Of a stretch of DNA of 64,000 bases, positions 764-50,768 are shown piece after piece. The number at the start of each line of letters is the position of its first letter. Within the stretch, counting starts at the first letter, position 1. Where the stretch lies: positions 3,328,535 through 3,392,534 of the forward strand of contig OY761144.1 in the NCBI GenBank assembly GCA_963664365.1, read 5' to 3'. The notes under the pieces are model-generated. The model did no database searches. It saw only the letters and a list, made by a program, of their open reading frames with translations, and was not told the DNA's origin. The position numbers and the translations under genes were made by a program. The stretch is from Dehalococcoidia bacterium (GTDB lineage Bacteria; Chloroflexota; Dehalococcoidia; Lucifugimonadales; UBA1123).

Positions 764-810
764 AAAATCCCTGAAAATCCCCCAATCCCGTAAATCCTGC
801 TTCCGACCCC

Positions 811-839
811 TTGACACCAGCCCAAAGACCATGTATTCT
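811..839 (+). promoter_or_regulatory. sigma70-type promoter of paralog 1
   Basis: TTGACA-17-TATTCT preceded by ACCCC, as in the other two paralogs. Confidence 0.75.
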
Positions 840-885
840 AAACAGAACTGTCGTACACCCACTATCCACCATCCACTAACCACTA

Positions 886-1788
886 ATGACTACTTCAACC
901 CAACAGACACCATCAAACCCGGCCCTCGACTTCGCCAACGCCATCCGCGAGGAAACCGACAACGGTCTCGAACTCATCGAGATCCTACACGACATCGCCC
1001 AAGGCAACGACCAGAAGGCCACCGCCAACGACCGCATCACTGCCGCCAACATACTCGCCGACAGAGGATTCGGCAAATGCCCCAGGCAAATCGACCCCAA
1101 TCCGGCCCCAACCCCCAAATCCGACGCCAACGACGTAGGGGCGATTCGCGAATCGCCCTCGGTGCCCGCCGCCAACCCCCGCCCCGTAACACAAATCAAA
1201 GACTCCCTGGACCAGGCCCTAGGCCCTGCTCCAACTATCCACTCGCCAAAATCTACTAACCACTATTCACAATCCACCATCCACTTCACCATCCAACAAC
1301 ACATCATCGAAATCACCAACAACGGACAGACCATCCGAGACACACTCAAAGAAATCGCCCGGGCCAAAGACGACCCGAAAGTCACCCCCTACCACCGCGC
1401 AAGAGCCGCGCGTATCCTCCTCGACCGTCTCCTCGGAACCGACAGCGCCCTCGAAACGAGGACCAAACCCTACGTCCGCCCGGTCAGACAAATCGACCCC
1501 GACGACCTGGCCGAAATCGACGCCAAACTCCGGCGAATGGAGGACGAGGGCATACTCACACCCTACCCGGACGGTCACAGAGACAACATAACCGTGCCTG
1601 AGATACCCGAAGGCTTCGATCCGACACCCTATCTGAAAGAGGCAGCCGAAAAGTTCTGGGCAAACATCGATATGACGCTCGAACGACAGAAGGCATGGCC
1701 CGCCATCGAAGAACGAAGGCGGAAGAAACTCGCCAAAATCTACCCCTCACACTCCGAAGACCAACCGGAAGAACCTCCCGACACATAG
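886..1788 (+). CDS. Uncharacterised multicopy protein, paralog 1
   Basis: Two internal helical repeats (NDRITAANILADRGFGK / YHRARAARILLDRLLG) and C-terminal ERQKAWPAIEERRRKKLAKIYPSHSED shared with 32141-33151 and 49455-50576. Confidence 0.85.
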   Translation: MTTSTQQTPSNPALDFANAIREETDNGLELIEILHDIAQGNDQKATANDRITAANILADRGFGKCPRQIDPNPAPTPKSDANDVGAIRESPSVPAANPRPVTQIKDSLDQALGPAPTIHSPKSTNHYSQSTIHFTIQQHIIEITNNGQTIRDTLKEIARAKDDPKVTPYHRARAARILLDRLLGTDSALETRTKPYVRPVRQIDPDDLAEIDAKLRRMEDEGILTPYPDGHRDNITVPEIPEGFDPTPYLKEAAEKFWANIDMTLERQKAWPAIEERRRKKLAKIYPSHSEDQPEEPPDT

Positions 1789-49326: not shown

Positions 49327-49454
49327 GGTATCGAGGATAGAGGCATTGTCTGAACTGTGATTTTTGGGATTATGGGATGGGCAGGATTATGGGCGGGTTT
49401 CAACCCGCCCATACCATAGGACGTGAACCCAGATACCCATACACGGCCTTGGCG

Positions 49455-50576
49455 CTATGTGTATGGCGGGTCAGGGTTGTCGCCATCAGCGGCGGGTTCG
49501 TCTTCTGAGTGTGAGGGGTACATTTGGGCGAGCTTCTTTCGCCTGCGTTCTTCGATGGCGGGCCACGCCTTCCGGCGTTCAATGCGAAGGTCGAGCTCTT
49601 CCTTGAACTTGGCGGCCTCTTCTCTGATGACCTCGATATTGTTGGCTACCCATTCCTTGGACGGCCTGGATATGGGCCAGTTTCTCTTTGGGGCGTTGGG
49701 GTCTGGCTTGATGCCGAGCTCGTCCTTCATCCGCTGGATCATCGCGCGTACTTTGGCCAGACCTTCGTGGTCGCGGCGATGCTCGCCTTCGTGTCCTTCG
49801 GGCATGTTGAGACTCTTGCTGCAGTAGATGCAGCTCTTTGTCGGGTCAAGGACATATCCGGGGGGATAGTCAGGGTAGTCCTCGTCACTTAGGATGGGCT
49901 CGGGAAGTGACCGGACAGCGGTTACGACGGGTGTGAGGTCCCTTCCGGCGGCGCGCTCCAGGAGCATCCTGGCGGCCCTGTTGCGGTGGAAGGGCCTGAC
50001 CTCTCGGTTTGGGTCTTCGGGCCAGGCTACCTCAATGAGGACGTCTATGAGGGTGTCGCCGTCGTTGGTGATGTCCATGACGTGGTCGCGGATAGTTTCT
50101 AGTAGTGAGTGGTTAGTGGATTGTGGCGAGTGGTTAGTTTCTGGTGGATAGTTTTTAGTTTCTAGTGGCGAGTGGGTAGTAGGAGCGGGGCCTATGGCCT
50201 CGCGCAGGGAGTCGTCTAGTTGGGTGACCCTTCGACTACGCTCCGCTGCGCTCAGGGCAGGCTCCCCACCGTCAGAGGGTGTGTCTGAACTGTGATTGGC
50301 GTGATTATCGGATTCCGCTGATTCGGGGTCCGGTTCCGGGTCGGTTGAGGGGGCAGGGTCGGTGATGGCCGGGGCCTGTCTGGGGGTTTTGCCGTAGCCT
50401 CTGTCGAAGAGGATGCCGGTTGCGGTTAGGCGGTCGTGCTCGGTGGCGTCGTGTTCACCCTGCGCGATTTCGTGGAGGAGGTCTAGGATGTCGCGCGTGT
50501 CGTTGGTCCTCGCGCGGATCTTTTGGGCGAGGCGTTGTTCCGGGGTCGGCGGCGTCTGTCGGATTGCTATGGTCAT
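49455..50576 (-). CDS. Uncharacterised multicopy protein, paralog 3 (with CxxC..H..H segment)
   Basis: HDRLTATGILFDRGYGK, FHRNRAARMLLER, ERRKAWPAIEERRRKKLAQMYPSHSED. Confidence 0.85.
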   Translation of the reverse strand: MTIAIRQTPPTPEQRLAQKIRARTNDTRDILDLLHEIAQGEHDATEHDRLTATGILFDRGYGKTPRQAPAITDPAPSTDPEPDPESAESDNHANHSSDTPSDGGEPALSAAERSRRVTQLDDSLREAIGPAPTTHSPLETKNYPPETNHSPQSTNHSLLETIRDHVMDITNDGDTLIDVLIEVAWPEDPNREVRPFHRNRAARMLLERAAGRDLTPVVTAVRSLPEPILSDEDYPDYPPGYVLDPTKSCIYCSKSLNMPEGHEGEHRRDHEGLAKVRAMIQRMKDELGIKPDPNAPKRNWPISRPSKEWVANNIEVIREEAAKFKEELDLRIERRKAWPAIEERRRKKLAQMYPSHSEDEPAADGDNPDPPYT

Positions 50577-50633
50577 TGGGTTTTGAGTGGTTAGTGGATG
50601 GTGGATAGTGGTTAGTGGACTGTTGTGCTGGAT

Positions 50634-50663
50634 AGTATATGGGAGCGTGAGAACGGATGTCAA
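50634..50663 (-). promoter_or_regulatory. sigma70-type promoter of paralog 3
   Basis: Reverse strand ACCCC-TTGACA-18-TATACT. Confidence 0.7.
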
Positions 50664-50768
50664 GGGGTGATAGTGATTAGTGGATAGTGGATAGTGGATA
50701 GTTTTTAGTGGTTGGCTGGTGGATGGGGTTTACAATGGAGGCGCATCCGGCTGAAACGGAGGTTGAAT

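What the first reader, a model, noticed from the sequence alone, without database searches (positions are those of the whole stretch)
790..1788. Uncharacterised gene cassette present three times in 64 kb, each with its own promoter: candidate new dispersed/selfish element
Seen: 886-1788 (+), 32141-33151 (+) and 49455-50576 (-) encode the same architecture. It has a duplicated helical unit (T[DN][ND]G/A...L.EIA...[DH]R..AA.IL.DR) and a nearly invariant C-terminal ER.KAWPAIEERRRKKLA..YPSHSED. Each sits alone in an unrelated neighbourhood behind ACCCC-TTGACA-17/18-TA.A/CT (811, 32068, 50663), has no SD site, and is flanked by the same short repeats. Recall, not verified: R.AA..LLDRG.GK resembles a motif of phage small-terminase-like proteins. 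Inference: this density implies a large genome-wide family that spreads as a promoter+gene unit, although no DDE, HUH, RT or recombinase motif is recognisable.
Basis: partly seen in the sequence, partly recalled or inferred. Interest (0 to 1): 0.85.

Follow-up and report, generated by a model that had tools for sequence, protein, structure and literature searches.

The report
Seventy dispersed small-terminase-like gene cassettes
The three genes belong to a 70-copy, unusually evenly spaced family of phage small-terminase-like genes in one bacterial chromosome, which may mark the places where the cell's own phage-derived machinery starts to package DNA.

Summary
The three ORFs, their shared architecture, the CCCCTTGACA promoters and the lack of an SD site are all there. 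The predicted large family exists: 70 loci in this 3.4 Mb genome (48 of subfamily A, 22 of subfamily B).

The family has no Pfam or NCBIfam match, but its context identifies it. Twelve A copies are followed directly by a phage terminase large subunit (TerL), and at least 13 more carry internally deleted TerL remnants. In relatives, a weak homologue sits in a TerS-TerL-portal row. The genes are therefore divergent small-terminase-like (TerS-like) genes, and the three window copies are solo survivors.

- **Selection:** 65 of 70 ORFs are intact, with dN/dS of 0.34-0.51 in the folded parts.
- **Regulation:** many promoters share an operator-like GAAC-N4-GT box with lexA and recA.
- **Binding:** a model supports binding of the C-terminal part to the N-terminus of TerL.
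- **Spacing:** the 70 loci are spaced far more evenly than chance (0 of 20,000 shuffles). This repeats in one relative and not in another.
- **Head genes:** a portal gene is kept in 29 of 30 genomes of the genus.

No transposase, inverted ends or near-identical copies were found. One empty site was seen in a relative. My best reading is SOS-type packaging-recognition modules, not a classical transposon. Their function is inferred.

The parts
781..807 (+). R1-type short repeat (9-nt periodic AATCC.. ending TTCCGAC) directly before the promoter of copy 1. A second copy lies at 626-652.
   Evidence: family D4. A repeat of this kind ends within 150 nt of the ATG in 32 of 70 loci.
811..856 (+). Promoter of copy 1: -35 TTGACA 811-816, -10 TATTCT 834-839, operator-like box GAACTGTCGTAC 845-856.
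   Evidence: sequence; 25 of 48 A copies have GAAC-N4-GTNY after the -10. lexA and recA have the same layout.
858..885 (+). Leader of copy 1 made of CCACTAW heptamers, with no SD site.
   Evidence: D2. Of 91 double heptamers in the genome, 72 lie within 300 nt of a family start.
886..1788 (+). Copy 1, a TerS-like gene of subfamily A (300 aa), solo with no TerL remnant. Two helical units (residues 12-62 and 129-184), disordered linkers, and a C-terminal helix (247-285) with the invariant block.
32025..32064 (+). Left copy of the 40-nt direct repeat (R1 type) that brackets cassette 2.
   Evidence: D1, spacing 1157 nt. The G017 site lacks it.
32068..32107 (+). Promoter of copy 2: -35 32068-32073, -10 TAAACT 32091-32096, variant box TAAC-TAAC-GTAC 32096-32107.
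32141..33151 (+). Copy 2, a TerS-like gene of subfamily A (336 aa), solo. Linker 1 holds the R-type core in frame (peptide NHSSD). Linker 2 holds an in-frame genome-wide hairpin repeat (about 32535-32585, peptide LSLEGEGWGEGEKS).
33182..33221 (+). Right copy of the 40-nt direct repeat after cassette 2, preceded and followed by CCACTAW heptamers.
49339..49378 (-). R2-type repeat (..AATCACAGTTCAGAC) downstream of copy 3.
   Evidence: D2
49455..50576 (-). Copy 3, a TerS-like gene of subfamily A (373 aa), solo and the most divergent of the three. An R2-type repeat lies in frame in linker 1 (50274-50313), and heptamer-type repeats lie in linker 2 (50087-50189).
50580..50711 (-). Leader with heptamers (50586-50625), the -10, the -35 TTGACA (50663-50658) and an upstream heptamer run (50672-50711) of copy 3.

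Best explanation
The three genes are solo members of a lineage-specific, very divergent small-terminase-like (TerS-like) family. The family descends from the terS gene of a phage-derived head module (terS-terL-portal) that this Dehalococcoidia genus keeps.

Shown:
- The genome holds 70 loci, each with its own TTGACA promoter.
- Twelve copies are followed directly, with overlapping stop and start codons, by a TerL gene. At least 13 more keep only deleted TerL stubs. The rest, including all three window copies, have none.
- The ORFs stay intact and are under purifying selection.
- The loci are spaced more evenly than chance.

Inferred:
- The two helical units recognise DNA or build the oligomer.
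- The nearly invariant C-terminal part binds the N-terminal extension of TerL made from the 12 intact copies, so solo copies work in trans.
- Transcription follows DNA damage through a LexA-type operator, GAAC-N4-GT(A/N)C.
- The short repeats in and around the genes (R repeats, leader heptamers) are the cognate sites.

On this reading each cassette is a recognition and initiation module that brings terminase to its own stretch of the chromosome.
For: Gene context in this genome:
- The ORF after 12 A copies matches Terminase_6N (8e-23) and Terminase_6C (1e-17).
- There are 12 full-length TerL copies, all right behind an A copy, and at least 13 remnants.

Gene context in relatives:
- A weak homologue lies just before TerL and portal at G019:C13 and G013:C2.
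- G008 has a 383-aa gene with the same two-unit build before TerL.

Likeness to small terminases:
- PHROG small-terminase family phrog_10899 is hit weakly (1.6e-3; 5 of 16 N-terminal units).
- For the unit model (pLDDT 81), the six best Foldseek rows are small terminases (E 1.4-2.5).
- The best of 48,161 chains by VIA-align is the NV1 small terminase (Z 5.2).

Binding model: score 0.77 against a best control of 0.48. That mark was reached by 58 of 80 solved complexes and 2 of 110 mismatched pairs. The runs share at least 78% of contacts and the partner pLDDT is at least 75. The interface is TerL residues 5-50 with copy-1 residues 198-278.

Selection:
- 46 of 48 A copies and 19 of 22 B copies are full length.
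- dN/dS is 0.51 and 0.44 in the two units and 0.34 in the C-terminal part, against 0.73-0.78 in the linkers.

Operator:
- lexA, recA and A promoters share the layout -10, then 5 nt, then GAAC-N4-GT.
- The box is kept in 4 of 4 G016 cassettes and in the G008 cassette, although the proteins are only 34-41% alike.

Candidate sites: leader heptamers differ between species (CCACTAW against CCTGAYA).

Head module:
- Portal scores 1e-74 and is found in 29 of 30 genus genomes.
- A protease, a major head protein and an adaptor are also present.

Spacing: gap CV is 0.57 against 0.98+-0.11, reached by 0 of 20,000 shuffles. In G016 it is 0.50, P 0.0008. Four other repeat families of the genome look random.
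Against: - No curated TerS family is matched, and no solved structure matches by sequence.
- All structural likenesses are below significance.
- The proteins are two to three times longer than usual small terminases. That comparison is from recall.
- The three window copies have no TerL beside them.
- No B copy has a TerL directly behind it. One orphan TerL remnant lies 4.5 kb from B copy 830861.
- No tail tape measure or sheath was found with PF10145 or PF04984, so a complete particle is not shown.
- In G000 the portal has no TerL next to it.
- Even spacing was not significant in G008 (CV 0.69, P 0.15, n 12).
- dN/dS of about 0.5 is high for a housekeeping role.
- Nothing is known about expression.
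- The LexA reading rests on a shared motif alone.
- The complex pass may lean on solved terminase complexes, and my own alignments were used for it.
Confidence: 0.5

Rival explanations
1. A selfish mobile cassette. The promoter-terS-terL unit multiplies for its own sake. It might spread by being packaged preferentially and then recombined into new genomes, or by recombination at the short R repeats. Solo genes would be its decaying, non-autonomous remains.
For: - An empty site exists in G017. There the flanks are 83% alike and about 95 nt stand where G000 has about 1215 nt of R repeat, promoter, gene and R repeat.
- Internal deletion derivatives of TerL keep both ends, as deleted transposons do.
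- Copies are mosaic.
- Expansions are lineage-specific.
- Copy 2 is bracketed by a 40-nt direct repeat.
- A same-strand R repeat lies within 400 nt downstream in 8 of 70 loci, against about 1 expected.
Against: - No transposase or recombinase was found in the cassette.
- The genome's only two tyrosine recombinases lie elsewhere.
- No inverted ends of 14 nt or more lie around the three window copies.
- No target duplication was seen by eye in the flanks; no dedicated search was run.
- The best pairs are only 96-98.6% alike.
- 65 of 70 ORFs are intact and dN/dS is below 1.
- TerS-like genes lie beside the same neighbouring genes in G016.
- Spacing is more even than random, whereas other repeats in the genome are random.
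- The cassette is at the same depth as its flanks in four runs.
Confidence: 0.2
2. A defence or interference family. The solo TerS-like proteins would be decoys that capture the terminase of invading phages, or redirect it, as satellite-encoded small terminases do. Many fast-evolving paralogues would then result from an arms race.
For: - There are many paralogues.
- dN/dS is 0.44-0.51 in the presumed recognition units.
- Sequences turn over quickly between species at kept places (34-41% identity).
- The promoters look damage-inducible.
- The nearest Atlas clusters are small viral proteins (score 0.88, a lead only).
Against: - The C-terminal TerL-binding part is nearly invariant and fits the cell's own TerL in the model.
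- Even spacing is not explained.
- No known defence genes were found beside the three window copies. The PADLOC library was not searched.
Confidence: 0.1
3. Domesticated DNA-binding proteins, such as regulators or nucleoid proteins, that no longer take part in packaging. The TerL links would be historical only.
For: - Up to 23 of 48 A copies and 22 of 22 B copies have no TerL directly behind them.
- The helical units are kept under selection.
- Regular spacing could suit a chromosome-structuring role.
Against: - The part that stays most constant is the one modelled to bind TerL.
- Twelve TerL genes stay intact and are 82-100% alike apart from one at 65%.
- The head genes are kept across the genus.
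Confidence: 0.1

Closest known systems
Small terminase subunits (TerS) of pac-type tailed phages, such as the SPP1-like G1P, PaP3 and NV1 small terminases
   Same: - In 12 copies, and in the terS-terL-portal row of relatives, the gene lies directly before terL with overlapping stop and start codons.
- It has a helical N-terminal unit, and its C-terminal part is modelled onto TerL.
- These small terminases are the top, though weak, structural matches.
- Short repeats lie inside and beside the gene. By recall, pac sites of such phages lie in or at terS.
   Different: - It is 300-373 aa long with a duplicated helical unit and long disordered linkers.
- It has no Pfam, NCBIfam or PDB sequence match.
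- There are 70 copies per genome, most without terL, each with its own promoter.
- The genes are not part of a prophage.
Gene transfer agents of the RcGTA type (Rhodobacter capsulatus)
   Same: - The phage-derived head genes are kept across a whole genus (portal in 29 of 30 genomes).
- The head genes are split over more than one locus.
- The terminase genes belong to the host chromosome.
- Control may be stress-linked (an inference).
   Different: - By recall, known agents have one terS and one terL and package DNA without sequence preference.
- Here there are 12 terL and 70 terS-like genes.
- No tail genes were found with the two families tried.
- No particles are known.
Satellite-encoded small terminases (SaPI/PICI) and lateral transduction from in-situ pac sites
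   Same: - Stand-alone terS-type genes in a chromosome could direct packaging of the DNA next to them. Papers PMC8575950 and PMC6687093 were seen as search listing and abstract start only.
- Induction by damage is plausible.
   Different: - There is no integrase, no island and no helper phage in view.
- The number of copies and their regular spacing are far beyond any satellite.
Insertion sequences with deleted, non-autonomous derivatives (MITE-like decay)
   Same: - The copies are dispersed.
- Internally deleted TerL genes keep both ends.
- One site is occupied in one species and empty in another.
   Different: - No transposase and no inverted ends were found, and no target duplication was seen by eye.
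- Copies differ by 1.4% to more than 50%.
- The ORFs are kept intact.

Membership tests
Phage small terminase (TerS) | Gene lies directly upstream of, and is co-expressed with, the large terminase gene | tested here: met
   Met for the family: 12 of 48 A copies have TerL right behind them, 11 of these with overlapping or abutting stop and start codons. Relatives have a terS-like-terL-portal row. Not met for the three window copies themselves, which are solo.
Phage small terminase (TerS) | Sequence membership in a curated TerS family | tested here: not met
   No Pfam or NCBIfam hit at E <= 1 above noise. There are only weak PHROG hits to phrog_10899 (1.6e-3; 5 of 16 units). The PDB profile search gave nothing below E 0.9.
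Phage small terminase (TerS) | TerS fold: helical DNA-binding or oligomerisation core forming a ring | tested here: inconclusive
   For the unit model, small terminases rank first in Foldseek (6w7t and 3zqp, E 1.4-2.5) and in VIA-align (7joq_I, Z 5.2, rmsd 8.7, 67 aligned). All are below significance. The oligomeric state was not tested.
Phage small terminase (TerS) | Binds the large terminase | tested here: inconclusive
   The model supports binding: score 0.77, best control 0.48. The mark was reached by 58 of 80 solved complexes and 2 of 110 mismatched pairs, contacts agree at 78% or more, and partner pLDDT is at least 75. This is a prediction, not a measurement.
Phage small terminase (TerS) | Recognises a pac or cos site | not testable with these tools
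   Candidate sites only. R repeats lie in frame in linker 1 in 31 of 70 copies and next to promoters in 32 of 70. Of 91 double heptamers, 72 lie within 300 nt of a start.
Transposable element (IS or transposon) | Encodes a transposase or recombinase | tested here: not met
   No such domain was found in the TerS-like proteins or in TerL beyond the terminase nuclease. Two tyrosine recombinases lie elsewhere in the genome.
Transposable element (IS or transposon) | Defined ends (inverted repeats) and target-site duplication | tested here: not met
   No inverted repeats of 14 nt or more lie around the three window copies. Homology between copies ends at the TerL stop codon, and a mosaic of genome-wide repeats follows. 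Only direct R repeats are present, and only at some loci. Target-site duplication was judged by eye only.
Transposable element (IS or transposon) | Presence/absence polymorphism at otherwise syntenic sites | tested here: met
   One clean case: cassette 2 is absent from G017:C202. The sites of copies 1 and 3 could not be judged in G017 because its contigs break there.
Gene transfer agent | Phage-like structural genes kept across a clade | tested here: inconclusive
   Head genes: portal is in 29 of 30 genus genomes, and G000 has a protease, a major head protein and an adaptor. Tail genes: nothing with PF10145 or PF04984. Other tail families were not searched.
Gene transfer agent | Particles that carry host DNA | not testable with these tools
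   There is no culture or particle data, and no RNA run was listed.

The most novel reading that the evidence does not exclude
The 70 cassettes form a chromosome-wide array of packaging origins. Each terS-like gene carries its own recognition repeats, so that after DNA damage the 12 TerL copies and the single conserved head module can start packaging every 11-128 kb (mean 48.5 kb). Every part of the genome would then be exported at a similar rate. That would be a gene transfer agent with distributed, sequence-specific initiation, kept evenly spaced by selection.
Probability: 0.3. Interest if true: 0.9.

Novelty: new variant of a known kind. Interest (0 to 1): 0.8.

Why it matters
Small terminases are known as single genes of phages, satellites and gene transfer agents. 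Here one chromosome of 3.4 Mb holds 70 intact, fast-evolving copies plus 12 large-terminase genes. They are regularly spaced and carry damage-type promoters, and a head module is conserved across the genus. I found no precedent in the four literature searches I ran.

If the cassettes start packaging, this would be a new way for a cell to make its whole genome transferable. It would also give a direct handle on how pac recognition evolves, with 70 natural variants in one cell. If they are selfish, they would be a mobile element without a known recombinase. Either way, the family gives a name and a testable role to 883 unnamed proteins in public metagenomes.

Tried and rejected
Searches and tests that gave nothing or were not significant:
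- **Curated families.** Pfam and NCBIfam on the three proteins gave only noise. Pfam on a B copy gave nothing.
- **Solved structures by sequence.** A profile of 44 family members against PDB sequences gave only E of about 0.9 to an unrelated protein.
- **Full-length model.** With the full-length model (pLDDT 67.6), Foldseek against pdb and viral libraries and VIA-align wide gave nothing significant. The long C-terminal helix filled the list.
- **Protein Atlas.** The best score was 0.88, which is a lead only.
- **Expression.** No RNA holder was listed.
- **Contigs laid on cassette 2.** A joint that skips 1156 nt (32064 to 33221) has only 24 letters on its shorter side, and both sides lie in the R repeat. 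I do not count it as an empty site. The unique parts of the cassette have the same depth as the flanks.
- **Empty-site tests for copies 1 and 3.** G017 contigs break at these places, and four other relatives are not syntenic there.
- **Even spacing in G008.** Not significant: CV 0.69, P 0.15 with 12 loci; CV 0.81, P 0.33 with 14.
- **Deletion between direct repeats as the cause of the missing short gaps.** Rejected, because neighbours in opposite orientation lack short gaps too: the smallest gap is 12 kb, against 11 kb for same-orientation pairs apart from one tandem pair.
- **Tail genes.** PF10145 and PF04984 were not found.
- **A universal 'R repeat - cassette - R repeat' structure.** Only 8 of 70 loci have a same-strand R within 400 nt downstream, and 17 of 70 within 1800 nt.
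- **Literature.** Four searches found no description of dispersed multi-copy terS/terL cassettes or of a gene transfer agent in Dehalococcoidia. I saw only listings and abstract starts and read no paper. Subscription journals and supplements were not seen.

The count is 12.
Full report
**1. The observation**

They align end to end at 67% and 46% identity to copy 1. They show a duplicated helical unit and an invariant C-terminal block, KAWPAIEERRRKKLA..YPSHSED.

Each has CCCCTTGACA, a 17-nt spacer and a TA-rich -10. None has an SD site. The neighbours are unrelated housekeeping genes: AhpC/TSA redoxin, Zn-ADH, MutS2, a DAO oxidoreductase and an aminotransferase. Pfam and NCBIfam give nothing.

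**2. Size of the family**

The window is part of a single 3,396,024-bp contig with 60.5% G+C. The three proteins find 70 loci in it (85 matches). These fall into two subfamilies:
- **Subfamily A:** 48 loci, starting MTT.QQTPSNPALDFA. All three window copies belong here.
- **Subfamily B:** 22 loci, starting M.SEIHTATINPVFAGHAA. B shares only the first 210 or so residues with A.

Forty-six of 48 A copies and 19 of 22 B copies are full length. The public protein collection holds 883 relatives. None has a name or a Pfam domain. A genome collection shows the family in a MAG titled Dehalococcoidia bacterium.

**3. What the gene is**

Twelve A copies are followed, mostly with overlapping stop and start codons (TGAacATG), by a 442-451 aa ORF. 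That ORF matches Terminase_6N (8e-23) and Terminase_6C (1e-17), and PHROG large-terminase families. These 12 are the only full-length TerL genes in the genome.

At least 13 further A copies carry TerL stubs. In these an N-terminal piece of 30-75 residues is joined to the last 20-90 residues, or only one end is left. The three window copies have no stub. The unit that multiplied was therefore promoter + TerS-like gene + TerL, and solo genes are what remains when TerL is lost.

In relatives, a weak homologue of the family lies directly before TerL and portal (G019:C13 and G013:C2). In G008 a 383-aa gene with the same two-unit build precedes a TerL.

**4. Direct likeness to small terminases is weak but points one way**

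- PHROG small-terminase family phrog_10899 is hit at 1.6e-3, and by 5 of 16 N-terminal units.
- The full model has two helical units with pLDDT near 90 (residues 12-62 and 129-184), disordered linkers and a long C-terminal helix.
- For a model of one unit (pLDDT 81), the six best Foldseek rows are the PaP3 and SPP1-like small terminases (E 1.4-2.5).
- The best of 48,161 chains by VIA-align is the NV1 small terminase (Z 5.2, rmsd 8.7, 67 aligned).
- None of these is significant alone.

A complex model of TerL with residues 190-300 of window copy 1 passes. The score is 0.77 against a best control of 0.48. That mark was reached by 58 of 80 solved complexes and 2 of 110 mismatched pairs. The runs agree in at least 78% of contacts and the partner pLDDT is at least 75. 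TerL residues 5-50 touch copy-1 residues 198-278. This supports binding but does not show it. It may also lean on known terminase complexes.

**5. Promoters and leaders**

All 70 loci have CC[CT]TTGACA.

- **B copies.** In all 22, the ATG lies exactly 31 nt after the -35, or 7 nt after the -10. These mRNAs should therefore be leaderless, which explains the missing SD site.
- **A copies.** Most have leaders of 58-94 nt built of CCACTAW heptamers. Seven A copies have short spacings of 31-40 nt instead.
- **Operator-like box.** Twenty-five of 48 A copies carry GAAC-N4-GTNY a few bases after the -10, against a chance of about 0.1% per such window. The copies are related, so this is not 25 independent events.
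- **Same layout at SOS genes.** The same layout stands at lexA (TAAGAT-attcg-GAACgttaGTGC) and at recA, whose whole promoter and leader copy the A type.
- **Conservation.** The box is kept in 4 of 4 G016 cassettes (aGAACATGCGTACt) and in the G008 cassette, while the leader heptamers differ (CCTGAYA in G016).

I read this as a LexA-type operator. That is an inference.

**6. Repeats**

A 9-nt periodic repeat comes in two types, R1 (..AAATCCTGCTTCTGAC) and R2 (..AATCACAGTTCAGAC).
- It ends within 150 nt of the ATG in 32 of 70 loci.
- It recurs on the same strand within 400 nt downstream in 8 of 70 loci, where about 1 is expected.
- It stands in frame inside linker 1 (peptide NHSSD) in 12 of 48 A and 19 of 22 B copies.

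Of 91 double heptamers in the genome, 72 lie within 300 nt of a family start. Ten A copies also have them inside linker 2.

By recall, pac sites of pac-type phages lie in or at terS. These repeats are candidates for such sites, or for recombination sites. Nothing here tests that.

**7. Is it mobile?**

For mobility:
- In G017 the flanks are 83% alike. The Zn-ADH gene and the gene after copy 2 are separated by about 95 nt, where G000 has about 1215 nt of R repeat, promoter, gene, heptamers and R repeat.
- Copies are mosaics. Identity between two copies can start exactly at the ATG, and TerL 3' halves are shared between otherwise different copies.
- One copy joins a B-type leaderless promoter to an A-type protein.

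Against a classical element:
- There is no transposase.
- No inverted repeats of 14 nt or more lie around the window copies.
- Homology ends at the TerL stop codon.
- The best pairs are 96-98.6% alike over 2.2-2.6 kb.

In G016, flanking orthologues are 70-86% identical as proteins. There a TerS-like gene lies before the aminotransferase orthologue in the same orientation and at a similar distance as copy 3. Others lie before the DAO and MutS2 orthologues in the other orientation. Yet these proteins are only 34-41% identical to G000 copies.

A tree shows clustering by genome, with a few old subfamilies such as that of copy 3. So places last longer than sequences. This points to fast divergence, gene conversion or repeated replacement.

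**8. Selection**

Nei-Gojobori dN/dS was computed over about 1000 pairs of 46 A copies.

| Region | dN/dS |
|---|---|
| Helical unit 1 | 0.51 |
| Helical unit 2 | 0.44 |
| C-terminal part | 0.34 |
| Linkers | 0.73-0.78 |

The folded parts are under purifying but loose selection. The part modelled onto TerL is the most constrained.

**9. Spacing**

In G000 the gaps between the 70 loci have a CV of 0.57. Random placement gives 0.98+-0.11, and 0 of 20,000 shuffles reach the observed value. The largest gap is 128 kb. Only one gap, a tandem pair, is under 11 kb, where about 14 would be expected (my estimate from an exponential gap distribution with a mean of 48.5 kb).

| Set | Loci | Gap CV | P or note |
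|---|---|---|---|
| G000, A and B together | 70 | 0.57 | 0 of 20,000 shuffles |
| G000, A alone | 48 | 0.71 | 0.008 |
| G000, B alone | 22 | 0.90 | not significant |
| G000, full-length TerL | 12 | 0.49 | 0.009 |
| G000, six other repeat or cassette families | 8-111 | 0.71-1.00 | all not significant |
| G016 | 20 | 0.50 | 0.0008 |
| G008 | 12 | 0.69 | 0.15 |

Short gaps are missing for neighbours in the same and in opposite orientation. The effect is therefore real in G000 and repeats once. It is not shown to be general.

**10. The rest of the machine**

G000 has one portal gene (1e-74), followed by a Dam-type methylase and two phage-associated ORFs. Thirteen kb away lie a head protease, a major head protein and a head-tail adaptor.

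Portal is found in 29 of 30 genomes of the genus, mostly once. In 17 of 29 relatives a TerL lies within about 1 kb before it, by my reading of the coordinates. This is not so in G000. Relatives have one to several TerL loci.

No tape measure or sheath was found.

**11. Reading**

I am confident, at about 0.85, that the family is a divergent small-terminase-type partner of TerL and that the window copies are solo survivors of terS-terL cassettes.

How they work is inferred. My preferred reading is damage-induced recognition modules that act with TerL in trans on repeats in and around the cassettes. The most novel form of this reading is an evenly spaced array of packaging origins for a head module that the genus keeps. 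Selfish spread, anti-phage interference and a pure DNA-binding role remain open.

Noticed in passing
G000:C1:2667210-2668340 (L041), outside the window: recA has a promoter and leader almost identical to the commonest A-type cassette promoter: CCCCTTGACACCAGCCCAAAGACCAT.TATTCT, a GAAC-N4-GT box and a CCACTA heptamer. It lies about 400 nt after the TerL remnant of cassette 2665654. Either recA took over a cassette promoter or the cassettes copied recA's.
   Followed up: partly
G000:C1, for example 761099, 2080950, 2376634 (16 places by promoter motif): This is a second multi-copy cassette (family C). It has CCCCTTGACA with a perfect CGAAC-N4-GTTC box between the -35 and -10, a 79-nt leader and a 134-aa ORF starting MLDPEIKSLL. 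The ORF has no Pfam hit and some copies are truncated. Its spacing looks random (CV 0.92).
   Followed up: partly
G000:C1, for example 809217, 821435, 1503688 (8 places by motif): This is a third cassette (family D). It has the same -35 context, a leaderless ATG 39 nt after the start of the CCCCTTGACA motif, and short ORFs of about 51 aa starting MSSRIDNTLNR. Function unknown.
   Followed up: no
window 32535-32585 (inside copy 2): A genome-wide hairpin repeat (core CCCTCTCCCTTGAGGGAGAGGG, 111 places in G000) sits in frame in linker 2 and gives the peptide LSLEGEGWGEGEKS. The same 40-47 nt match at 88-100% identity in most relatives of the genus searched. The disordered linkers seem to tolerate insertion of small repeats.
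   Followed up: partly
L012:167-1420 (G000:C1:719013-720266): A tandem array of 8.4 copies of a 149-nt unit (98% matches) lies before cassette 720347. Each unit holds an R1 repeat and a GTCATTCCGAGCGCAGCGAGGAATC hairpin. The last unit runs into the promoter at the R1 end.
   Followed up: no
G000:C1:3101404 (subfamily A copy): This is a hybrid. It has a B-type leaderless promoter and first codons (MQ) joined to an A-type protein, which is evidence of recombination between the two subfamilies.
   Followed up: no
G000:C1:1548294-1549720: A radical-SAM gene (448 aa; by recall, of the putative DNA-repair kind) lies about 300 nt after cassette 1546954. It has CCCCTTGACA and GAACATGAGTTC boxes. Cassettes also lie before mutS2 (window copy 2) and recA.
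   Followed up: no
G000:C1:159586-163827 (L050 9587-13828): The conserved portal gene is followed by a D12-class adenine methyltransferase and two ORFs that match phage families of unknown function (phrog_3694 at 1e-71, phrog_14650 at 1e-17). A small CxxC ORF precedes the portal where relatives have TerL.
   Followed up: partly
G000:C1:670182-672215: This is the only close pair of family loci. A truncated B copy (124 aa) lies 1 kb before a full one, inside a 6-kb stretch that matches itself with a 1-kb shift.
   Followed up: no
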